Source of the DNA: Trypanosoma brucei | Lineage: Eukaryota | NCBI GenBank assembly: GCA_000002445.1 | Contig: CH464491.1 | Span: 576,001 to 640,000, forward strand | Length of the DNA: 64,000 nucleotides | Direction: 5' to 3' | Part shown: in pieces, positions 18,270 through 59,475 of the stretch | Position numbering within the stretch: position 1 is the stretch's first letter | Layout: every line of letters starts with the position of its first letter | Program-made: the position numbers and the translations under genes | The notes under the pieces: generated by a model | Told to the model about the DNA's origin: nothing | Databases searched by the model: none | Seen by the model: only the letters and a program-made list of their open reading frames with translations

Positions 18270-18734
18270 ATGCAGTCGCGGCGTAACTCGATGATGAATC
18301 GCGTCTGCCGTAAATACGCTCGAGTACCTGGTCAACACGGTGACGGTAATGTACCTGCATTTTATCCCATCGCTATCAACCCCGGCTGGTGGGGACAGCC
18401 TTTCGGTAAGGTGAAGGACGCCAAAGGGCAAATTCTTTTTTTCTACGGCCTTGTGTTACCAATCGCTCTGTACTGGATATTTGATGTCACGTTCGCCCAG
18501 CGCACACGTGTCGGCAACGTCGGCAAGCGGCCGATGTACTCTAACTTCTTTTTTAGACAAATGGACCTGGATGACCCAGATCACGCCATCAAGTATGAGA
18601 AACTGCGGCAGGAAATAGCGGAGAATAAGTTAGAAGTCCGCTGGGGCGGGACGAACTTCTTGGCAAGTTACTTATGGGAGCCCGGTGATCCGGAGCCCGA
18701 CATACGCCGTCGTGAGGTACATGCACATCACTAA
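18270..18734 (+). CDS. hypothetical small membrane protein
   Basis: 154-aa ORF at ATG 18270 in the sense orientation of the cluster. It has one predicted TM helix (ILFFYGLVLPIALYWIFDV) and protein-like composition. I recognise no family. Confidence 0.4.
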   Translation: MQSRRNSMMNRVCRKYARVPGQHGDGNVPAFYPIAINPGWWGQPFGKVKDAKGQILFFYGLVLPIALYWIFDVTFAQRTRVGNVGKRPMYSNFFFRQMDLDDPDHAIKYEKLRQEIAENKLEVRWGGTNFLASYLWEPGDPEPDIRRREVHAHH

Positions 18735-19623
18735 TCCGAGAATGAAACGGCATATTTTGAAATGGCGGTGGTGGGACACATATATGTGTACATGCCATGG
18801 TTTCGTGATTATTGTGGGTGTCGCATATTTTTTTTTTTTTTTTAGGATAGCAGATGAAACTTTTTTTGAAAGTTTTGGTGTGGGGGCGTATCTTTGATTT
18901 CTCCGACGTTGCGAGAGGCGGTAAGCAGTCAACAGTTGTCGGTGTGGTAGTAGGGTCGGCGTTAATTTAGTGATTGTGACATGACATTACCTTTCTTTCC
19001 CCATTTCTGCAAGTGACCTGCTACTTATGTGGCGGCGTTGCTTTTAACAGTAAGAGGGCACGTGCGTAGGATCACCCTTGTGTTGTTGTTAGCTATGGCT
19101 GCGGTAATCCCGTGTTTTTTATTTTATTTTATCGTACTTGCTTGTTGTCACGGTTGTACACAATCATTGGCGTCGTAGTAGTACGGGTACAGCTTCGCCT
19201 GTTTGTGGCTGCAAGCAATGGAGCGAGTAAGCGTACACGTTTATGTCGTTGTTCTTCCCCTCTTTTCCCCTCTTGTGCTGTCAGTATTATTGTTATTATT
19301 ATTGTTTTTTTTAAAGTTTCTTCTCATCCGCTCAATATCACGTGCTGGGGGAAGGCCCCACGTGAGACGGTTGTTGGTGGTGTGTCGGTACCTTTCATAA
19401 ACGCAGTGCCGCGACAACCTTTTTGACCCTTTCTTCTTCTTCTTTCCTCAACCTTTCTTTTCTTGTGTGCGAATGCGCTGTATTGTCTCGCACCTCTTTA
19501 AGCTGGTATGACTGGGAAATTATAAAGGTAGGGAGACGAACTGTGTTGTGTGTCTTTTCAGGCGTGACAAAGTGAGATACCGTTCGTTTAGGGCCACCGA
19601 AGTAGTTGTTACGGAATCAGTGA

Positions 19624-20892
19624 ATGATGGAATTAATCGGCTGCCCTGCGGTTGCGGTGTTGACCTGTTTCTACTGGGTGGCTTCCCATTTGGTCCTTCT
19701 TCTTCGCGTTGCTTTGCCGCGCTTCAGCGTAATCGTGCGCTACGGTGGTCGCTGTGTTACGTCCGAGAGTATTTGCAGTGGCTTTGCCTCTTGGATTCAG
19801 TCATCTCGGGATTATGCAAAGCGCACAGTCGGCATGTGGAAGTCTGAGAGACTATCGCGGGCCGTCTTTCACTGTACTGCCATTCTTGAGGGTTCGATCT
19901 TGTGTCGTATACGAGTTAGCAGAAAGCTTAGCTTCTGCGCTTTTTATGTTGCAGGTATTGTTTCCATCGTTTTGATACTCATTCTGATGGATGGCGGCCA
20001 TTGTTCTCCCATTGTGGAGGGGATGACAGTATATTCTGACGGCCTCAATCACTCAGCTGTCGCCTTCCTGGTTTCTTATGCCGGTCGACCGCTGCTTGCT
20101 TTTCTCATGCACTGCACCGTCCGATTATTGGAGTGCCTTTTTTTGCATCGCTTCAGGGGCGGGTCCGATGACTGTGTGACTGGCTTCGCCGCCGTTGCTG
20201 GATGCTCTTTCTACGTATTTGCCTCGTGTTCCAGCGGCATTATTCTCCCCTGTACAGAACGGTCGCCACTAGTGATTGGTGGGCAGAGGGTTGTTAATGG
20301 TATGACGGAGGCATCACCTTTTTTCCCTACGTTCGCGTTGGCCGTGGATGCCTTATTTGTTCTGCATATGGTTTTTCAAGTAACACAGGTGTACCATCAC
20401 TGGGTCCTGGCGGAGCTTCGGAGAAAACCTGTCGGCACAAGTGTCCTTAAGGGGGAGCACTGTTCCGTTGGCAGATGCAAGACCACACCGAAGGGCGTGA
20501 GCGAGGAAGGGAGAATCGGCGACGGTTCAGCGGTGCTGTACCATTTTCCTCGTATCGCACTCTTTAAATATGTGCAGGAGCCGCACTACGCGTGCGAAGT
20601 CGCGATGTATGCCGTCAATGCAATCAGTATCTGCCTCATAGTTTACAATAGGTCATTGCCCTCCGGTGGCACTGGAAGGGAAATAGGGGATGAGTTTTCC
20701 GTAGGCAGTGAGGTGGTGCCGTTGTTGTGCGCGACGTGCTTACCGCCGCTAGGCGTGTTGTTTTTCTCGTTGTTTAATCTCGCCATTACCGCGCGTGAGC
20801 ACCGCCGGTTTTGGGAGTGTGTGAATGCTAGGCGAGGCGACGGGGAGCGGGAGCTAATCCCCAAATGGGATTTGTTCTATGGCGTGTGGTAA
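19624..20892 (+). CDS. 3-oxo-5-alpha-steroid 4-dehydrogenase family membrane protein (polyprenol reductase/TECR-like)
   Basis: 422-aa polytopic ORF starting at ATG 19624. The C-terminal region LFKYVQEPHYACEVAMYAVNAISICLIV...EHRRFWECVNARRGDGERELIPKWDLFY matches the SRD5A-family signatures G-x-F-x-x-v-x-xPNYfGE and HRWYlxxFxxYPxxRkALIPFIF. Confidence 0.5.
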   Translation: MMELIGCPAVAVLTCFYWVASHLVLLLRVALPRFSVIVRYGGRCVTSESICSGFASWIQSSRDYAKRTVGMWKSERLSRAVFHCTAILEGSILCRIRVSRKLSFCAFYVAGIVSIVLILILMDGGHCSPIVEGMTVYSDGLNHSAVAFLVSYAGRPLLAFLMHCTVRLLECLFLHRFRGGSDDCVTGFAAVAGCSFYVFASCSSGIILPCTERSPLVIGGQRVVNGMTEASPFFPTFALAVDALFVLHMVFQVTQVYHHWVLAELRRKPVGTSVLKGEHCSVGRCKTTPKGVSEEGRIGDGSAVLYHFPRIALFKYVQEPHYACEVAMYAVNAISICLIVYNRSLPSGGTGREIGDEFSVGSEVVPLLCATCLPPLGVLFFSLFNLAITAREHRRFWECVNARRGDGERELIPKWDLFYGVW

Positions 20893-21316
20893 CCCAGCCT
20901 CCCTTCCCCATTCTTCGCTGTTTGTTTGGGTGCCACGGGGGTCTTTTTTGGCTTGATAATCGCAGCTGTTGACCCGGGAGGGGGACAGTGGCCTGCACGA
21001 CAGTGTTGAGTAATATGAGGGAAGGGCGTTTTGTACGCCCTATATCAGGGTGGATATGACTTTACCTTGAATTGCTGCCCTAATGGCTGCTCGTGCGTAT
21101 TTATATCCGTACGTGCGCCTGAACTCCGTTGTCTCAGGTTGTCGTTGATTATTCTATCACTTTTTGCCGTGACCTTTTTGTTGCCGTTGTGACACTGTCT
21201 CCTGTTGGCATTTCTCTTACTTTCTATTTTTTGTATTGTGTTCGGGTGAACAACTAATTGCGCATATGCTTGTAGGCGTTTTCTAAGCGTCGCACTCAGA
21301 AGCATCATACTTAGCC

Positions 21317-44945: not shown

Positions 44946-46479
44946 GAAAAGGGGAAGAAATAGATGTGTGAACCACAGGGATGTGGAGGGAAGAAGAGGG
45001 GAATTTACGCGCCTGTGGTTAAGAGAAGGTTGAAAAGAAAGGCAAAACAAGAGAGAAGGGAAATGTGAGAAATGTGTATGCATGTAAGTGTGCGCGATGT
45101 GTGTGGTGGGTGGTTTAGCTGATGCTTTAAAAGTTTCGAAGGTGTGCGCTGAAAACAGAGAAGTGCTGCGAGGGATAGAGGAGAAGATACATGAAGTTGA
45201 GAACAATGTCGAAAACAAAAACAAAATAAAAATGCGGGGGACCAGTTGGAGATTGGTGGGGTGAGGAAAGAAGAGACGTGAGGAGAGGGAAACGCTACAC
45301 AAAAATGGGTCTGAAAGACTTGTGGCTGTGAACAAGAATAAAAGACCTTAGATGATGCACCAGAGCTAAGGAGAAATGTCAGACGACTTACAGCACGCAC
45401 AGAGAACAATCAGAGTCAACATTCCGCATATATTTCTCTTGAATTTGGTTGTTGATTAATGGAGGACAATTCATTACAGGATGGAAAAGAAGATGTGTGT
45501 TTGTGTGTGGGAGAGAAAGGGAGAGGAGAAAAGAAAAGAAAAGAGACTTGTGTTTCCGTAGATTTCAACAACGGGAGAAGGAAGGAAGGAAGGAAGGAGG
45601 TTGCGAAATGTACGAAGAGTGACTCTCTTGATATATGAACGAGGCGGAAGGAACTGAAGCGAAGCGGCGCCATCGCAAAAAAAAAAAGAAAGAAAAGAGG
45701 GTCACTAGCGGCTGATTATGACGTTATTTCATGTGGAATGAAAGGGAAAACCGATAGGTATAAGAAGGTATGGATGTGCGTTTCTTCTTAAAACTTCGGC
45801 TCCCTCCACGGCGTACCACATAATAACGTTACATATTCGTCTAACTATTAATTTTTTTCTCTCTGTTCTCTTCACTTGTGTATTATACTGTGCTGTGTTG
45901 CGTTCCCACCTGAATGACAAGTTCCCCAATCTCCACTTTGTGCCTCACTATTTGTTACTAACAGAAGACAATCGGTGTGCGATGTGTTAAGAAACGCATG
46001 AACTCATCGAAAACTTTCGCTGTTGTAATATGAAAAGAGAGGAGGTAAAGAAAAGAAAAAAAAAGGAGAAATAAGAGATGTTATTGAACGAAGTACAATT
46101 GATAAGTGGGAGCTATGGGATTTTTTTTTTTTTGGGGGGGGCCGCAAACAAATGAAGATAATGGAGCGTACCGGTAATTTATGTGTGGAGAAGTAAAGAA
46201 ATGTCGGCTGAGTCGCGTGGTGCTTTTTCTCTTTTTTTTTGCTCTTTTTTTGTTTGGTTATGTTTCGCCTTTGTTGACTCTCAGTTATTTCATTACATTT
46301 ATTGGCGCTTTACTTCTCACTCTTTCCCTCCCTTAACTTCAGTCATCACAAAAGCCGTCTCCGTTTCATTTTCGCCAACTGGTAGTAAAAGAAGGAAACA
46401 AATGGTGAGGGAAAGGAGAGTGTAGAAACCAAAAATAAAAAAAAAGAGGGGAAGGGGAGAAAACAAAAAATAGTGGTGG

Positions 46480-46890
46480 GTTCCGCAGCGCTGACTTTTT
46501 GCATTCCTCTGTCACTTCTCTTTCTTTTGTTCTCTTTTCTTTTCTTTTCTTTTCTTTATTATTATTATTATTCTTCTTCTTCTTCATTCTTTCTCTTTCT
46601 CTTTTTCATATTTAACCACCGTTTTGTTACGCGCTTTCTTTGTTACTCCCACATTCCACATCCCTCTTCCCTTCTTTTTTCTTTTCCTTCTTTCGGTGGG
46701 TCTTTTTTCTTTTTTTTTTCCTTCGGTGTTCGCACTTGTGTTTTGCTGAAATATATTTATTTGTTTTTATCTTCTCTCTCTCTCTCTCTTTCCCTCCCTC
46801 CATCCTTTCCCAACCTCGTACCTCATCTAATTTCACACCATATGCACATTTTTGTGATTTTCTTTTTCATTTTCTTTTTATTTTATTTTA
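46480..46890 (+). repeat. extended pyrimidine-rich low-complexity region (CT/TTC/TTA repeats)
   Basis: About 400 nt is almost exclusively C/T on the + strand. It includes (TTCTT)n, (TTA)5(TTC)4 and (CT)8, and no ORF crosses it. It is typical of kinetoplastid UTR or intergenic sequence. Confidence 0.7.
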
Positions 46891-47210
46891 CGTGTATGTG
46901 CGTATGTGCTAGTGTTGGTGTTTGGTGGTGGTGGTGTGGGAGGTGAAGAAATAGATAAGGGAAGGGAAGGGAAAGCGGATGGTGGTGTATTTTGTGTCTC
47001 TTTGCTTGTGTTTTCCACGAGATGAAAATGTTATTAGGCATTAGGACACAATAAAAAGACGCGTGGGACATATTTGCAAAGACAAGTGCGGCACGTTTTG
47101 TGAAATAAATGTTCACTGGCTGCAGTTCCGCTTATGGCTTCCGTAATGATTGTGGTTGGTATTACTTTTCTTTCTGGTTCGTAAAGCTGTTTTGTTTTTA
47201 TTATTATTCC

Positions 47211-47276
47211 CCCCCCTTTTCCTTTTCCTTTTCCCTTCTTCTCCTCCTCCTCCTCCTTCCTCTTCCCTCCTTCTTT
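47211..47276. repeat. polypyrimidine (TCC/CCT)n tract
   Basis: cccccccttttccttttccttttcccttcttctcctcctcctcctccttcctcttccctccttctt. Confidence 0.85.
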
Positions 47277-48295
47277 GCGCTGTGCAGTTCTGGCTTTGTG
47301 TGTGGTTGTGTGTCTGTGGTGCATAAGCCTTGCATAACTGAATGAAATGAATGCAGGGCAAGAAATACCAAAAAAAAAAATAAAGAGAGAAGGAAGAAAG
47401 CAAGAAGAGCAGTTAGAGCAGTTGCTACCGTACACTTCATGTACCATAAGCAGCCTGTTAGCTTGACACCGAAAGTGGGCAGGAGTCATGAGACGGTCGA
47501 GGAAATTGGTTAACTTTTTCTCTTTTCTTTTCTTTTTAAATGAGTTGTTGTCGTGGTTGTTTATTGTGGCTTTTTCTTTTACTTTTTTTCTCGACTGGGT
47601 ATGTCCGAAGCAGGAAGATGGGAAGTATTGCCATCTTTTTCTTCCTTTTCTCTTGGCCTCTTTATTTATTATTGATTCGGCTTCATCGTCACCCTTTCAC
47701 GCGGTGTGAGTATGACGAAGGTGTGCGTGTCGCTGCAACCGGCGGAGTGGAAAATTATTTATTTATGCTTTTCTTTGCTTTCATTTACGATTCTCTTATT
47801 ACTACATGTACTGTAAAAAACTGTTCGTTTTCTTTCTTTTGCATTTCTCTTTTCTTCCATTGTCTTTCTTTTTTTTTTCGCTTGTTTTAAATTTTTATTG
47901 CTATATTATGCTCTCCCTGTTCCCTCCCTCCCCCAATAAGTAACCAAATTTATACACGCCAACTATCTGAGGCGGAGCAAAAATATTTGAGAAGAAACAA
48001 CAATTAAACATATTTCTTTTTTTTTTAAAAAAAAGAGAGGAAGAAAGCAAAGCCTGTAGGCAAGAGAGGAGGAAATCATTAGGAAGGAGAAACCAACAGG
48101 CCCCGTAAAAGATTTCCTCCTTTTTTTTTAAATTTCCAAAAAAGTGGCTTCTGTAAAAAGAAGCGTTTGTGTGCAGGTACGAAAGGTGTGTGGACAAAAA
48201 CTTGCGAGAGTAAACTCTGAGAGGGAGAGAAGGGGATTGTGTGTTTGGGACCAAAAGCAAGAGGTAATAGAGGAAAGGGGAAGGGATTAAAAAAT

Positions 48296-54321: not shown

Positions 54322-55164
54322 CGTGTTGCGTTTTTTTTCTGGTCGAAATAAAGCTACCATCAGAAGGTGAATTTGTTCCTTCCCTTCCACGCACATACCG
54401 ACGGACCGCGGAGGCGGGGAAACATGGCAATGCATTCCCTTCTCAGAAGTTGGTGGTTCTTTATCGGTTTTCCCGGTTTTTGCTTTTGTTTTCCAATTCG
54501 CTGTTAAAAATGAAAATCAGAGTCGAAAGGTGACGAAAAGAAATGTCTGAGGGATGAAACAACTGTTAGCGACGGTAAGCTGATGCTATATTGTGACGAC
54601 TGTGGCTCCGTCACTATTGCGTAGTGTATTTTTTTTATTCCGTTGCTTGCATGTACATGTAATACGGACAGCTTCACAACTCCGAGAGTGATTTGGGGTA
54701 CTCGGAGCCGCAAGTGCACGAGTTAAGTTGATGCCTGTGTGCGTGCAAATGAGTGGGTGCTTGAGGATACTTTATGGTGTGGTTATTTTCCTATTTCCCC
54801 CCCCTTGCTATTTGTGGCCTGCAGTGCCGTCGTACGTCGTATGCGTTCGTAAGCTTCAATTCCTTTGACTTTGTTGGTGGAATTACCCCGCGATAGTCGG
54901 CATCGCTCATGTGAGGTAGAGGGAGGTGGGATTATTATCTTCTGGGGTTCTGAAACCTTCAGCAAGTTTTGCTTGTTCACCCTCTCCCTTCTGCTTGCCA
55001 TTTTCAATTTTTTCCTTTTTTTAGTGCGGTAAGGGCGACCGTTGATGAGTAGGGTTGTTTTTAAAGCAAGGTTTTGAGGATCGATAGGAGAGCAGACTGA
55101 CAAAACAAAAAGGCCGTAGAATTTTCTTTTATTTTTTGCGTAATCGTTCTGAGGCTTGACGATC

Positions 55165-58100
55165 ATGACTACATGGCTCTTCAATGTAAGTGTCTTGCAT
55201 CTGTCTGCCTCCTTCTCTGAGCCGCGACTAGCCTCCTTCGCGGCTGAGGGACAACTCGCGTGTCGTATGTTTTTCAACGGAAAACCTCTCGATCTCACAT
55301 TTCAGCCCGCATCGGAGATGATTGGAGGGGGAAAACCCCAGTCTACTTTTCTTTACCGTATCCAATCCCTCACGGTTGCTGACCTTTTAAACATGTTGAG
55401 GCAGAGGTCTGTGAGGTTTTACATCGTTCCCGTGAAAAGGAACAGTGATCCGTTAGGTAAGGAGATACGGGCGGCCTGCAGAGCGACCACGAACATCATG
55501 TGCATAGCAGAGCGTGGGGGTGGGCTGCTTGAACTTCCCCTGACATCTGCTGCTTCAAAGGAAGAAGGAAATAGTGGTATTGTAGGTACTCTTTCGGTAT
55601 GTATTGCTTTTGATCAGTTAGCGGAAGTGGAGTTACGTCTCAAGGAGTTTTACGTCTCGGGCTTGGAAAATGGGATATATGGATTGCATTGTCGTCTTGC
55701 CCCCTTCAAGGAGGGTGTTGTGAGCAAGTTGACGCGGGCGCTGTCTGGCACCGCTCGGTGGACTGACGCCGAAGTGCCTATGGCGAAGTATCGGGGTGTG
55801 CTGCGTAACTTAAAAAAGCATCAGTTTGCTATAGCTGTTTATTTGATAGATGGCAATAATAACGAAAGGCCAGTCGCGTCGTTTGAAGTGGATTTAGCAA
55901 TCAAAAATACAAGTGCGTCCTGCAAAGAGATAACAATCCCATTCTCCATGAGTGATGGAAAGACATCAACAACGGTGAACGGGGCTCTTCAACTGAGCGG
56001 GTTACCGACCTTTGAGGACGAAATGCAAAAAATATTACGAGCAGGTCCGGCATGCGTTGACACTGAAGATGAAAAGAAAGAGAAAAACAAATTCTCAGAT
56101 CCCGAAGGGGCCAAGAGCTCAGAGGCCGAGAGCACCACAGAAATTGATACAGAAAACTCAAGTATGGGTCGCCATCTCCCCGAATATTCGCAGGGATCGT
56201 CCCCTCCAATTGTTTCGCGCACATCAACCCCTACAAGAGCGTCACCACGGGATATTTCTTCCCCACCTAGCGAAGATCAAGATGCTGAAGATTGTCGATT
56301 CAGCTTTCCGAGTAAAAACAGCATTTCTGCCCTTTGGCACTCTGAAGCAGATCTGGAATCTCCAACACCGCCACCTGAGAAGGACATGGATGTGCATGGT
56401 GATGTTCCACCGCCAACACCGCCACCTGAGAAGGACATGGATGTGCATGGTGATGTTCCACCGCCAACACCGCCACCCGAGAAGGACATGGATGTGCATG
56501 GTGATGTTCCACCGCCAACACCGCCACCCGAGAAGGACATGGATGTGCATGGTGATGTTCCACCGCCAACACCGCCACCTGAGAAGGACATGGATGTGCA
56601 TGGTGATGTTCCACCGCCAACACCGCCACCCGAGAAGGACATGGATGTGCATGGTGATGTTCCACCGCCAACACCGCCACCCGAGAAGGACATGGATGTG
56701 CATGGTGATGTTCCACCGCCAACACCGCCACCTGAGAAGGACATGGATGTGCATGGTGATGTTCCACCGCCAACACCGCCACCCGAGAAGGACATGGATG
56801 TGCATGGTGATGTTCCACCGCCAACACCACCACCCGAGAAGGACATGGATGTGCATGGTGATGTTCCACCGCCAACACCGCCACCCGAGAAGGACATGGA
56901 TGTGCATGGTGATGTTCCACCGCCAACACCGCCACCCGAGAAGGACATGGATGTGCATGGTGATGTTCCACCGCCAACACCACCACCCGAGAAGGACATG
57001 GATGTGCATGGTGATGTTCCACCGCCAACACCGCCACCCGAGAAGGACATGGATGTGCATGGTGATGTTCCACCGCCAACACCGCCACCCGAGAAGGACA
57101 TGGATGTGCATGGTGATGTTCCACCGCCAACACCGCCACCCGAGAAGGACATGGATGTGCATGGTGATGTTCCACCGCCAACACCGCCACCCGAGAAGGA
57201 CATGGATGTGCATGGTGATGTTCCACCGCCAACACCGCCACCCGAGAAGGACATGGATGTGCATGGTGATGTTCCACCGCCAACACCGCCACCTGAGAAG
57301 GACATGGATGTGCATGGTGATGTTCCACCGCCAACACCACCACCTGAGAAGGACATGGATGTGCATGGTGATGTTCCACCGCCAACACCGCCACCCGAGA
57401 AGGACATGGATGTGCATGGTGATGTTCCACCGCCAACACCGCCACCCGAGAAGGACATGGATGTGCATGGTGATGTTCCACCGCCAACACCGCCACCTGA
57501 GAAGGACATGGATGTGCATGGTGATGTTCCACCGCCAACACCGCCACCCGAGAAGGACATGGATGTGCATGGTGATGTTCCACCGCCAACACCACCACCC
57601 GAGAAGGACATGGATGTGCATGGTGATGTTCCACCGCCAACACCACCACCCGAGAAGGACATGGATGTGCATGGTGATGTTCCACCGCCAACACCACCAC
57701 CCGAGAAGGACATGGATGTGCATGGTGATGTTCCACCGCCAACACCACCACCCGAGAAGGACATGGATGTGCATGGTGATGTTCCACCGCCAACACCACC
57801 ACCCGAGAAGGACATGGATGTGCATGGTGATGTTCCACCGCCAACACCGCCACCCGAGAAGGACATGGATGTGCATGGTGATGTTCCACCGCCAACACCA
57901 CCACCTGAGAAGGACATGGATGTGCATGGTGATGTTCCACCGCCAACACCACCACCCGAGAAGGACATGGATGTGCATGGTGATGTTCCACCGCCAACAC
58001 CGCCACCCGAGAAGGACATGGATGTGCATGGTGATGTTCCACCGCCAACACCGCCACCCGAGAAGGACATGGATGTGCATGGTGATGTTCCACCGCCAAC

Positions 58101-59475
58101 ACCACCACCCGAGAAGGACATGGATGTGCATGGTGATGTTCCACCGCCAACACCACCACCTGAGAAGGACATGGATGTGCATGGTGATGTTCCACCGCCA
58201 ACACCGCCACCCGAGAAGGACATGGATGTGCATGGTGATGTTCCACCGCCAACACCACCACCCGAGAAGGACATGGATGTGCATGGTGATGTTCCACCGC
58301 CAACACCACCACCTGAGAAGGACATGGATGTGCATGGTGATGTTCCACCGCCAACACCACCACCCGAGAAGGACATGGATGTGCATGGTGATGTTCCACC
58401 GCCAACACCACCACCCGAGAAGGACATGGATGTGCATGGTGATGTTCCACCGCCAACACCGCCACCCGAGAAGGACATGGATGTGCATGGTGATGTTCCA
58501 CCGCCAACACCGCCACCCGAGAAGGACATGGATGTGCATGGTGATGTTCCACCGCCAACACCGCCACCTGAGAAGGACATGGATGTGCATGGTGATGTTC
58601 CACCGCCAACACCACCACCCGAGAAGGACATGGATGTGCATGGTGATGTTCCACCGCCAACACCGTCACCTGAGAAGGACATGGATGTGCATGGTGATGT
58701 TCCACCGCCAACACCGCCACCTGAGAAGGACATGGATGTGCATGGTGATGTTCCGATGGTTGTGGAGGGTAGTGCAAATGTTGATTCTTCATGTGTGCTT
58801 GTTTGTAGTGGAGGTGCTGAAGAAGTTGTTGATGTCCCTGCAGATCTTGAATCGGTTGATGATGAAAATGTTTATGTTTCCGAATTGCAATCCACTGCTG
58901 TTTTGAATGAAGATGTTACATTGTTGTTAGATGAATGTGACAGAATGGTGGTAGGTCGTGACGAGGGTGCCTCTGGTAGATCTGTTGGCGTGCCAACACT
59001 ACAGGCTTCTAATTTAATAGAATTTCCACCGCCATCAAATGGAAAAGAACCTGCTACCTCGAGGGAAGAGGCAGCTGATCTTCTTTTAACACGTGAGAGG
59101 GAACTGCTCGATGCGATGGAACATGAGAATGAGTGTATTGACATGCTTGTGCAGTCTCTTAGAAGGATGGATAATGCATCTGAGAAGGATAGGGCTGCTT
59201 ATTGTGCCGAAGTGGACAGGTTGCAGCAGCAGTTTAAGCTGCTGGATGAAGCGGAGGAGGAGCTGACGTTGCTGCTGGCGCGTGCCACCCAAAGGTTTAA
59301 TTTATGTCGTGAGGAACGTCGGAAATCACAGTTGGAGCTCTTGGAGGCGCGCGCGCGGAAGGAAACGTACAGTTTGGCACTTGCTATGATGGACCGGGAG
59401 TTGCGTACACAGTTTGATAACGATGGCAACCGTCGCCCAGGAGGGATGTTCCTATCCAAAAGTGACTCTTCATAA
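55165..59475 (+). CDS. repetitive protein with about 47 tandem copies of the 17-aa unit PPPTPPPEKDMDVHGDV
   Basis: The ORF-track start at 55156 is TTG and the first ATG is 55165 (MTTWLFNV). A unique roughly 400-aa N-terminal region precedes the 51-nt tandem array (56362-58752). A unique roughly 240-aa acidic coiled-coil C-terminus follows it. Confidence 0.75.
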   Translation: MTTWLFNVSVLHLSASFSEPRLASFAAEGQLACRMFFNGKPLDLTFQPASEMIGGGKPQSTFLYRIQSLTVADLLNMLRQRSVRFYIVPVKRNSDPLGKEIRAACRATTNIMCIAERGGGLLELPLTSAASKEEGNSGIVGTLSVCIAFDQLAEVELRLKEFYVSGLENGIYGLHCRLAPFKEGVVSKLTRALSGTARWTDAEVPMAKYRGVLRNLKKHQFAIAVYLIDGNNNERPVASFEVDLAIKNTSASCKEITIPFSMSDGKTSTTVNGALQLSGLPTFEDEMQKILRAGPACVDTEDEKKEKNKFSDPEGAKSSEAESTTEIDTENSSMGRHLPEYSQGSSPPIVSRTSTPTRASPRDISSPPSEDQDAEDCRFSFPSKNSISALWHSEADLESPTPPPEKDMDVHGDVPPPTPPPEKDMDVHGDVPPPTPPPEKDMDVHGDVPPPTPPPEKDMDVHGDVPPPTPPPEKDMDVHGDVPPPTPPPEKDMDVHGDVPPPTPPPEKDMDVHGDVPPPTPPPEKDMDVHGDVPPPTPPPEKDMDVHGDVPPPTPPPEKDMDVHGDVPPPTPPPEKDMDVHGDVPPPTPPPEKDMDVHGDVPPPTPPPEKDMDVHGDVPPPTPPPEKDMDVHGDVPPPTPPPEKDMDVHGDVPPPTPPPEKDMDVHGDVPPPTPPPEKDMDVHGDVPPPTPPPEKDMDVHGDVPPPTPPPEKDMDVHGDVPPPTPPPEKDMDVHGDVPPPTPPPEKDMDVHGDVPPPTPPPEKDMDVHGDVPPPTPPPEKDMDVHGDVPPPTPPPEKDMDVHGDVPPPTPPPEKDMDVHGDVPPPTPPPEKDMDVHGDVPPPTPPPEKDMDVHGDVPPPTPPPEKDMDVHGDVPPPTPPPEKDMDVHGDVPPPTPPPEKDMDVHGDVPPPTPPPEKDMDVHGDVPPPTPPPEKDMDVHGDVPPPTPPPEKDMDVHGDVPPPTPPPEKDMDVHGDVPPPTPPPEKDMDVHGDVPPPTPPPEKDMDVHGDVPPPTPPPEKDMDVHGDVPPPTPPPEKDMDVHGDVPPPTPPPEKDMDVHGDVPPPTPPPEKDMDVHGDVPPPTPPPEKDMDVHGDVPPPTPPPEKDMDVHGDVPPPTPPPEKDMDVHGDVPPPTPPPEKDMDVHGDVPPPTPPPEKDMDVHGDVPPPTPSPEKDMDVHGDVPPPTPPPEKDMDVHGDVPMVVEGSANVDSSCVLVCSGGAEEVVDVPADLESVDDENVYVSELQSTAVLNEDVTLLLDECDRMVVGRDEGASGRSVGVPTLQASNLIEFPPPSNGKEPATSREEAADLLLTRERELLDAMEHENECIDMLVQSLRRMDNASEKDRAAYCAEVDRLQQQFKLLDEAEEELTLLLARATQRFNLCREERRKSQLELLEARARKETYSLALAMMDRELRTQFDNDGNRRPGGMFLSKSDSS
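56362..58752 (+). repeat. 51-nt tandem repeat array, about 47 near-identical copies (coding)
   Basis: The unit ccaacaccgccacc(c/t)gagaaggacatggatgtgcatggtgatgttccaccg is repeated head-to-tail. Variation is limited to synonymous third-position changes (ccg/cca, ccc/cct) plus one Pro-to-Ser change near 58660. Confidence 0.95.

What the first reader, a model, noticed from the sequence alone, without database searches (positions are those of the whole stretch)
56362..58752. Near-perfect 51-nt x ~47 tandem array encoding the proline-rich 17-aa unit PPPTPPPEKDMDVHGDV inside a 1436-aa protein
A 2.4-kb array of head-to-tail 51-nt units keeps the reading frame. Copies differ only at synonymous third positions (ccg/cca, ccc/cct) plus a single Pro-to-Ser change near 58660. 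That points to strong concerted evolution or recent expansion, and to selection on the peptide. The encoded repeat alternates a rigid PPPTPPP segment with an acidic EKDMDVHGDV segment, reminiscent of immunodominant repetitive cytoskeletal and flagellar antigens of trypanosomes. The flanks are unique: an N-terminal roughly 400 aa and an acidic coiled-coil C-terminus. Out-of-frame and antisense readings of the array also stay open. They appear as ORFs 56012-58906 (+, alternative frame) and 56242-58641, 56277-58733, 56300-58792 (all -). These are artifacts. Copy number in an assembly of such a repeat is frequently collapsed or strain-variable.
Basis: seen in the sequence. Interest (0 to 1): 0.7.

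Follow-up and report, generated by a model that had tools for sequence, protein, structure and literature searches.

The report
Proline-rich repeat linker in trypanosome C2 protein
A real, almost perfect 47-copy in-frame repeat forms a long acidic, proline-rich linker inside an uncharacterised Trypanosoma brucei protein (Tb927.11.2290) that has two C2 domains at one end and a long helical tail at the other; it is an ordinary coding minisatellite for trypanosomes, though the protein around it is better defined than its annotation says.

Summary
A 51-nt unit is repeated 46.9 times at 56362-58754 with 98% matches and no indels. It lies in frame inside a 1436-aa ORF (55165-59475, +). Only three unit positions vary: two synonymous, and one Pro-to-Ser in a single unit.

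The window is T. brucei TREU927 chromosome 11. Gene order identifies the gene as Tb927.11.2290, annotated "hypothetical protein, conserved".

The flanks are conserved only within the genus Trypanosoma:
- The last ~125 aa form two long helices.

T. cruzi, T. theileri, T. grayi, T. rangeli and T. vivax have a short non-repetitive linker where the array sits. A probable T. congolense orthologue has a related 16-aa repeat. T. b. gambiense has 36 units with a different variant pattern, and a T. equiperdum contig breaks inside the array.

My reading is a lineage-specific coding minisatellite, homogenised by unequal exchange, that acts as a long polyanionic proline-rich spacer between a C2 head and a helical tail. 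Interest is modest.

The parts
55008..55024 (+). Polypyrimidine tract (TTTTTTCCTTTTTTT) followed by AG. It is a candidate spliced-leader acceptor site upstream of the start codon.
   Evidence: Read directly from the sequence. Its function is inferred from what is generally known about trypanosome trans-splicing and was not tested.
55165..59475 (+). Coding sequence of the 1436-aa protein, Tb927.11.2290 (155 kDa, pI 4.4, no transmembrane or GPI-type hydrophobic segment).
   Evidence: ORF. The first Met aligns with the invariant M1/W4/F6 of the orthologues. Gene identity follows from the order EIF4E1 (2260), IC140 (2270), ALIX, this gene, ERF1 (2300). The maximum Kyte-Doolittle score over 19 residues is 1.37.
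55165..55617 (+). First C2-type beta-sandwich (aa 1-151), starting at residue 1 as an N-terminal-type C2 does.
55618..56034 (+). Second C2-type beta-sandwich (aa 152-290). The two-domain module is basic (pI 8.7).
   Evidence: No sequence similarity to the first C2 is detectable.
56035..56361 (+). Non-repetitive Ser/Pro/Glu-rich linker (aa 291-399), poorly conserved between species.
   Evidence: Translation. Orthologue linkers do not align here. pLDDT falls below 50 from residue 296.
56362..58752 (+). Tandem array of 46.9 units of 51 nt, giving 797 aa (aa 400-1196). Unit PPPTPPPEKDMDVHGDV; 35% Pro; net charge -3 per unit; pI 4.1.
58651..58701 (+). Unit 45, the only unit with an amino-acid change (C to T at 58666, Pro to Ser).
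58753..59052 (+). Acidic low-complexity segment after the array (aa 1197-1296).
   Evidence: Translation. pI 4.05 was computed for aa 1197-1300, which extends 4 residues beyond this part. No match in orthologues before C-terminal residue ~109.
59056..59427 (+). Conserved C-terminal helical region (aa 1298-1421): two long helices of about 40 and 82 residues. It is a presumed coiled coil or oligomerisation tail.
   Evidence: AlphaFold model from alignment A3: pLDDT 88.8, helices at 2-41 and 44-125 of the fragment. It is 25-32% identical to T. rangeli, T. cruzi marinkellei, T. theileri and T. grayi.
56012..58906 (+). Spurious ORF in an alternative frame (964 aa).
   Evidence: The unit is stop-free in this frame. 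Both common variants would be non-synonymous in this frame.
56242..58792 (-). Three spurious antisense ORFs: 56242-58641, 56277-58733 and 56300-58792.
   Evidence: All three minus-strand frames of the unit are stop-free. The ORFs end within about 100 nt of the array, and every large gene in the window is on the + strand.

Best explanation
The array is a genuine coding minisatellite inside Tb927.11.2290. This is a soluble protein specific to the genus Trypanosoma. Its conserved parts are a basic N-terminal tandem C2 module, which is a candidate head for binding membrane or cytoskeleton, and a C-terminal pair of long helices, which is a candidate oligomerising tail.

In most trypanosomes these two parts are joined by a poorly conserved disordered linker of about 170-220 aa (T. 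rangeli, T. cruzi, T. theileri, T. grayi; T. vivax not measured). In the African lineage leading to T. brucei, and apparently T. congolense, a 16-17-aa proline-rich, acidic segment of that linker was amplified. It is now kept nearly identical by unequal sister-chromatid exchange, replication slippage or gene conversion, so copy number drifts between strains (47 versus 36 units).

In the protein, the 797-aa array most likely behaves as an extended, polyanionic, proline-stiffened disordered spacer that sets the reach between head and tail. Its exact sequence and length are probably only loosely constrained.

What is shown: the architecture, the fold assignments, the phyletic pattern, and the differences in copy number and variant pattern. 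What is inferred: the recombination mechanism, the spacer role, and what the C2 and helical parts bind.
For: - Array anatomy and reading frame.
- Frame continuity with conserved flanks in T. cruzi (31% identity over 290 aa N-terminal, 27% C-terminal), T. rangeli, T. grayi, T. theileri and T. vivax.
- C-terminal long helices, pLDDT 88.8.
- No array in T. cruzi, T. theileri, T. grayi, T. rangeli or T. vivax.
- A related 16-aa repeat, LELSDGDVPPDTVPPP, sits at the same position in P0042, the closest non-brucei orthologue. Only 35 of 5000 composition-preserving shuffles reach the observed unit similarity.
- DAL972 has 35+1 units and lacks the A15 variant that 17 TREU927 units carry. The A15 units cluster in the 3' half of the array (P about 0.03).
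- Composition fits an acidic, extended chain: 35% Pro, net -3 per unit, array pI 4.1 against 8.7 for the C2 module.
- No transmembrane or GPI signal.
Against: - No experimental localisation, interaction or phenotype data could be retrieved, so the spacer role rests on architecture alone.
- The array is roughly four to five times longer than the whole linker of the other species. That could mean it has gained a function of its own.
- The GDVPP-T-PPP core is shared between the T. brucei unit and the probable T. congolense unit. Single-copy look-alikes occur in the T. cruzi and T. rangeli linkers. Both points hint at a sequence-specific motif rather than an anonymous spacer.
- Copy numbers come from Sanger-era assemblies and may be inexact.
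Calling it T. congolense is an inference.
Confidence: 0.6

Rival explanations
1. Amplified short linear motif. The unit core (GDVPPPTPPP) would be a docking motif for a proline-recognition module, such as profilin, WW, SH3, GYF or EVH1-type domains, or a spliceosome-associated WW/FF protein. The array would then be a multivalent platform whose copy number tunes avidity, working in the manner of a formin FH1 region.
For: - The PP.T.PPP...GDV order is shared between the T. brucei unit and the probable T. congolense unit beyond what composition explains.
- Single-copy look-alikes sit in the linker of T. cruzi (PDLSDVPPLSPS), T. rangeli (SIDVPTAPPP) and T. vivax (PPPPDTAPPL).
- Tb927.11.2290 was a high-confidence yeast two-hybrid prey of SF3a60 (PMC3961280). 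That result is typical of proline-rich baits and preys.
Against: - No canonical PPxY, PxxPx[KR] or FPPPP motif is present in the unit (read from the sequence).
- T. grayi and T. theileri have no such motif.
- The look-alikes were found post hoc.
- Yeast two-hybrid hits for proline-rich or acidic proteins are often non-specific.
- No FH2 or other actin-related domain was found.
Confidence: 0.2
2. Immunodominant tandem-repeat B-cell antigen or 'smokescreen'. The array would exist because repetitive epitopes released from lysed parasites divert the host antibody response, as proposed for other trypanosomatid tandem-repeat proteins.
For: It is a large, near-perfect, hydrophilic tandem repeat in an abundant class of trypanosomatid antigens (GM6, MARP, K39 and CRA/FRA; from general knowledge and the titles and abstracts listed). 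The array is present in the mammal-infective African lineage and absent from the T. cruzi clade and T. theileri.
Against: - The protein is predicted to be intracellular, with no signal peptide, transmembrane segment or GPI signal.
- No serological data could be found. The peptide string occurs in no paper, and the key tandem-repeat antigen survey is not held.
- T. vivax, which is also a bloodstream parasite, lacks the array.
- Antigenicity would be a by-product, not a mechanism.
Confidence: 0.08
3. Assembly artefact. The array, or its near-perfect identity and copy number, would be produced by mis-assembly or consensus collapse rather than reflecting the genome.
For: Near-identical 51-nt units over 2.4 kb exceed a Sanger read length (general knowledge). 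The T. equiperdum contig breaks in the array, and the two assembled subspecies differ by 11 units.
Against: - The same unit is found at the same place in three independent assemblies: TREU927, DAL972 and OVI.
- The frame is preserved exactly.
- The interspersed variant pattern is non-random and differs between assemblies.
- A related array is present in a second species.

The existence of the array is therefore safe. Only the exact count is uncertain.
Confidence: 0.03

Closest known systems
Trypanosomatid tandem-repeat proteins and antigens (T. brucei GM6, MARP, FAZ1; T. cruzi CRA/FRA; Leishmania K39)
   Same: A large, in-frame, nearly identical tandem array inside a big intracellular protein with unique flanks. 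Copy number differs between strains, and the array is hard to assemble.
   Different: The unit sequence is unrelated. No cytoskeletal or flagellar localisation and no seroreactivity is known for this protein. The flanks are tandem C2 domains plus a helical tail, not the calpain-like or microtubule-binding repeats of those proteins.
N-terminal C2 (NT-C2) proteins such as EHBP1, EEIG1/FAM102 and plant PMI1 (Zhang and Aravind 2010; cited in PMC3495828)
   Same: A C2 beta-sandwich starts at residue 1 and is followed by long disordered sequence and a C-terminal helical or coiled-coil region. UniRef labels the T. cruzi marinkellei orthologue 'C2 NT-type domain-containing protein'.
   Different: The Pfam library, which should contain the NT-C2 model, matches none of the seven orthologues even at E <= 10. 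This protein has two C2 domains, no CH domain, and no detectable bMERB-type fold; Foldseek finds nothing for the tail.
Tandem-C2 membrane tethers (extended synaptotagmins, copine/BON1, ferlins)
   Different: There is no transmembrane anchor, SMP or vWA domain. No Asp is invariant in the alignment, so a canonical Ca2+ site is unlikely. Sequence identity to these proteins is only 6-16%.
EP/GPEET procyclins of T. brucei
   Same: Proline plus acidic residues in short tandem repeats, which give an extended polyanionic chain.
   Different: Procyclins are small, secreted and GPI-anchored, with 2-5-aa units. This protein has no signal peptide or GPI signal and a 17-aa unit.
Formin FH1 regions
   Same: Many proline tracks spaced along a disordered segment, potentially multivalent.
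   Different: No FH2 domain or other formin feature was found. The tracks are interrupted by Thr and separated by a fixed acidic decapeptide.

Membership tests
C2 domain superfamily | Eight-stranded beta-sandwich of C2 topology | tested here: met
C2 domain superfamily | Conserved aspartate cluster for Ca2+ binding (a feature of the Ca2+-dependent subset only) | tested here: not met
   No Asp is among the 29 invariant columns of the six-species alignment. This points to Ca2+-independent C2 domains. It does not exclude membership of the superfamily.
NT-C2 family (Pfam NT-C2 / PROSITE C2 NT-type) | The domain lies at the extreme N-terminus of the protein | tested here: met
   The first strand starts at residue 2. 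M1, W4 and F6 are invariant in the orthologues.
NT-C2 family (Pfam NT-C2 / PROSITE C2 NT-type) | Significant match to the family's sequence profile | tested here: not met
   No Pfam family matches the T. brucei N-terminus at E <= 0.1, or any of seven orthologues at E <= 10. The only positive indication is the UniRef name of the T. c. marinkellei orthologue. The PROSITE profile behind that name could not be run here.
Trypanosomatid tandem-repeat B-cell antigens | Long in-frame array of near-identical units in an expressed protein | tested here: met
   Array confirmed. Expression was not tested.
Trypanosomatid tandem-repeat B-cell antigens | Recognition by sera of infected hosts | not testable with these tools
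   The peptide is not found in any held paper. The survey by Goto et al. 2011 is not held.
Coding minisatellite under concerted evolution | Differences in copy number and internal variant pattern between close relatives, with near-identity within each array | tested here: met
   TREU927 has 46+1 units with four DNA variants. DAL972 has 35+1 units with two variants and no A15. The flanks are more than 99% identical.
Coiled-coil tail | Long uninterrupted helices with heptad hydrophobic periodicity | tested here: inconclusive
   Helices of about 40 and 82 residues at pLDDT 88.8. A crude heptad count is only moderate. No oligomer prediction was run, and Foldseek found no match.
Formin (FH1-FH2) | An FH2 domain next to the proline tracks | tested here: not met
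   No Pfam match in either the N-terminal or the C-terminal part.
Procyclin-like surface repeat proteins | N-terminal signal peptide and C-terminal GPI signal | tested here: not met
   The N-terminus is a strand of the C2 fold. The C-terminus ends ...FLSKSDSS. The maximum 19-residue hydropathy is 1.37.

The most novel reading that the evidence does not exclude
Tb927.11.2290 and its orthologues would define a Trypanosoma-specific tether with a C2-C2 head and a helical tail. In African trypanosomes, a pre-existing short linear motif of the linker (DVPP..PPP) would have been amplified into a 36-47-valent docking platform for a proline-recognition partner, for example profilin/actin or a WW/FF splicing-associated factor. 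Strain-variable copy number would then tune a cellular property, rather than the array being a passive spacer.
Probability: 0.12. Interest if true: 0.55.

Novelty: new member of a known kind. Interest (0 to 1): 0.3.

Why it matters
Practical use:
- The array is a clean, strain-variable coding minisatellite on T. brucei chromosome 11. It could serve as a typing marker, and it flags a place where reference assemblies are unreliable.
- As a 797-aa hydrophilic perfect repeat specific to the T. brucei group, it is a cheap candidate serodiagnostic antigen to test.

Biology: the analysis turns a 'hypothetical protein, conserved' into a defined architecture (tandem C2, variable linker, helical tail) that is restricted to the genus Trypanosoma. 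It also shows a disordered linker being replaced by a repeat within one lineage. None of this would surprise a specialist, because tandem-repeat expansion in trypanosomatid proteins is common.

Tried and rejected
Homology and look-up searches that gave nothing useful:
- The search for homologous proteins with the N-terminal 414 aa returned nothing, and with the six-species profile returned only T. grayi. The word prefilter missed orthologues that are in the collection.
- Exact look-up of the protein from five possible start codons was not on record, so no cluster of strain variants could be read.
- Pfam found no family for either flank.
- A PDB sequence profile search gave only a chance hit.
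- The afdb50 fold library is not installed.
- Foldseek on the helical tail gave no match.
- T. congolense DNA is out of reach: neither its ALIX protein nor P0042 is on record in the contig index. The full T. congolense array and a dN/dS between units could therefore not be obtained.
- Leishmania orientalis has no detectable orthologue at the syntenic site.

Literature:
- The peptide string, XP_828313 and the old-style Tb11.18 identifiers gave 0 papers.
- Tb927.11.2290 appears in the text of one paper only.
- Three genome-wide supplements did not contain it.
- The Goto 2011 tandem-repeat antigen survey is not held.

Ideas rejected:
- Surface or GPI repeat protein: no hydrophobic termini.
- Formin-like protein: no FH2 domain.
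- Internal duplication of the two C2 domains: no sequence similarity between them.
- The weak hit to a 2616-aa Ig-repeat protein (P0047, E = 2e-4) being meaningful: it is probably beta-sandwich or compositional noise.


Full report
**Observation**

Tandem Repeats Finder reports a single array at 56362-58754: period 51, 46.9 copies, 98% matches, no indels, score 4569. It is the only array scoring at least 80 in the whole window.

In the frame of the ORF 55156/55165-59475 (+) there are 46 complete units encoding PPPTPPPEKDMDVHGDV (56407-58752). A truncated first unit precedes them at 56362-56406.

Only three of the 51 columns vary:
- G/A at position 15 (CCG/CCA), with A in 17 units.
- C/T at position 21 (CCC/CCT), with T in 12 units.
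- A single C to T at position 16 in unit 45 (nt 58666), changing Pro to Ser.

The 30 nt encoding EKDMDVHGDV are identical in all 47 copies and occur nowhere else in the window. They arise because five of the six frames of the unit contain no stop codon.

**Where the window comes from**

Three window proteins are exact matches to T. brucei brucei TREU927 chromosome 11 proteins, for example eRF1 = EAN79202/XP_828314 on a 5.26-Mb contig. All ORFs of 250 aa or more outside the array are on the + strand, which fits one polycistronic unit.

The local gene order is EIF4E, a WD40 protein, ALIX (BRO1 plus V domain), the repeat protein, then eRF1. Three anchors fix the gene identifier:
- EIF4E1 is Tb927.11.2260 (PMC8608314).
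- Tb927.11.2270 is dynein intermediate chain IC140, and Tb927.11.2300 is ERF1 (supplement of PMC5568443).
- Only ALIX and the repeat gene lie between those two.

The repeat protein is therefore Tb927.11.2290, annotated "hypothetical protein, conserved". The only paper text that names it lists it as a high-confidence yeast two-hybrid prey of SF3a60 (PMC3961280).

**The flanks**

An exhaustive HMMER search of 1.84 billion representative proteins with aa 1-399 found only five true relatives, all from Trypanosoma. They are T. rangeli, T. cruzi marinkellei, T. grayi, T. theileri and an unnamed UniParc entry, P0042.

Pfam finds nothing in any of them. An AlphaFold model built on the six-species alignment is nevertheless confident (pLDDT 83.8, pTM 0.77). 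It shows two beta-sandwiches, at aa 1-151 and 153-280.
- Foldseek aligns more than 300 columns to tandem-C2 proteins: BON1/copine, E-Syt2 C2A-C2B and a ciliary C2 protein, with E = 2e-8.

The first sandwich starts at residue 1 as N-terminal-type C2 domains do, and UniRef calls the T. c. marinkellei orthologue "C2 NT-type domain-containing". No Pfam family, the NT-C2 model presumably included, matches, so I do not file the protein in that family. No aspartate is invariant, so the domains are probably Ca2+-independent. The module is basic, with pI 8.7.

The last ~125 aa are conserved at 25-32% identity. They are predicted as two long helices with pLDDT 88.8. No specific fold match was found. There is no transmembrane or GPI-type hydrophobic segment.

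**The array in other trypanosomes**

I reached the orthologous loci through the syntenic ALIX gene.
- T. b. gambiense DAL972 has the same gene with 35+1 units, 1249 aa in all. The flanks are more than 99% identical.
- The DAL972 array contains only the G15 variants, whereas 17 TREU927 units carry A15. In TREU927 the A15 units lie mostly in the 3' half. The two arrays have therefore turned over independently.
- The T. equiperdum OVI contig stops 65 nt into the array.
- T. cruzi (647 aa), T. theileri (635 aa), T. rangeli (660 aa) and T. grayi (539 aa) have a non-repetitive Ser/Thr/Pro-rich linker of about 170-220 aa instead. The frameshift-ridden T. vivax locus has no tandem repeat either.
- Leishmania orientalis has no detectable orthologue at the syntenic site.
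- P0042 is the closest non-brucei relative, at 38% identity. It is not T. vivax, so it is probably T. congolense. It ends in 3.5 copies of LELSDGDVPPDTVPPP at the same position. Only 35 of 5000 composition-preserving shuffles match the T. brucei unit as well.

The amplification therefore seems to predate the split between T. brucei and T. congolense, with homogenisation within each lineage afterwards. Single-copy look-alikes of the core occur in the linkers of T. cruzi (PDLSDVPPLSPS), T. rangeli (SIDVPTAPPP) and T. vivax (PPPPDTAPPL). I found these post hoc and treat them as a lead only.

**Interpretation**

Several things are demonstrated. The frame is correct, because it joins two conserved domains. 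The other ORFs are by-products of the repeat. The array is lineage-specific and differs in copy number and variant pattern between subspecies.

The rest is inference. Homogeneity is maintained by unequal exchange, slippage or conversion, which is the textbook behaviour of minisatellites. The 797-aa segment has 35% Pro, a net charge of -3 per unit and pI 4.1. It most likely acts as an extended polyanionic disordered spacer between a basic C2 head and a helical tail.

Two synonymous changes out of three variant sites has P = 0.14-0.23 under neutrality. Antigenicity is plausible by analogy with other trypanosomatid tandem-repeat proteins, but it is untested and would be a by-product in an intracellular protein.

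The main rival is that the unit core is a docking motif amplified into a multivalent platform. The cross-species conservation of GDVPP-T-PPP and the two-hybrid hit keep this idea alive. Against it, no canonical proline-motif consensus is present.

**Verdict**

This is a real and well-described feature of an ordinary kind for trypanosomes. It is a new, uncharacterised member of the class of tandem-repeat proteins, with some added value:
- The flanks are now assigned as tandem C2 plus a helical tail.
- The family is restricted to the genus Trypanosoma.
- The copy-number difference is documented.

The exact copy number in Sanger-era assemblies remains uncertain. That caveat rests on my own knowledge of how those genomes were assembled.

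Noticed in passing
L006:14505-16280 and 19087-21051; L008:13054-14835 and 18590-20548: T. cruzi and T. theileri carry two extra genes between ALIX and eRF1: a 591-594-aa hypothetical protein upstream of the orthologue and an ABC transporter downstream. T. brucei lacks both at this locus, so synteny is only partly conserved.
   Followed up: no
L007:10001-17492: In the T. vivax long-read assembly, genes are split by apparent frameshifts: ALIX into 623 + 244 aa, eRF1 truncated to 394 aa, and the C2 orthologue into three or four pieces. This looks like uncorrected indel errors rather than biology.
   Followed up: partly
L009:14899-18792: In Leishmania orientalis the gene after ALIX is a 1297-aa low-complexity Ser/Ala-rich protein followed by strumpellin. 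There is no detectable C2-C2 orthologue and no eRF1 within 10 kb.
   Followed up: partly
window:38001-40000 and 46001-48000: Two AT-rich stretches (GC 0.38-0.39 against about 0.48 elsewhere) lie in long gaps without ORFs of 250 aa or more (36.8-41.6 kb and about 44.9-48.2 kb). They are presumably long UTRs or intergenic regions.
   Followed up: no
window:26646-31271: A 1541-aa ORF whose only Pfam match is a diacylglycerol acyltransferase domain at its extreme C-terminus (aa 1293-1510). About 1290 aa upstream remain unassigned.
   Followed up: no
window:2317-4380: A 687-aa ORF with a weak Schlafen AlbA_2 domain match (E = 4e-6) at aa 544-665.
   Followed up: no
window:48239-50725: The WD40 protein two genes upstream of the repeat gene is Tb927.11.2270, annotated as inner-arm dynein intermediate chain IC140 (IDA7) in a supplement of PMC5568443.
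   Followed up: partly
window:55165-55512 (aa 28-116 of the first C2): In the exhaustive HMMER search, a 2616-aa protein made of about 27 Ig-like repeats (P0047) weakly matches this stretch in 8 places (E = 2e-4). This is probably beta-sandwich or compositional noise.
   Followed up: partly
window:55165-59472: Neither this protein (from any of five start codons) nor a T. brucei-group orthologue could be retrieved from the 15-billion-protein collection, although its neighbours are there and the DAL972 gene is called on its contig. The cause is unknown.
   Followed up: partly
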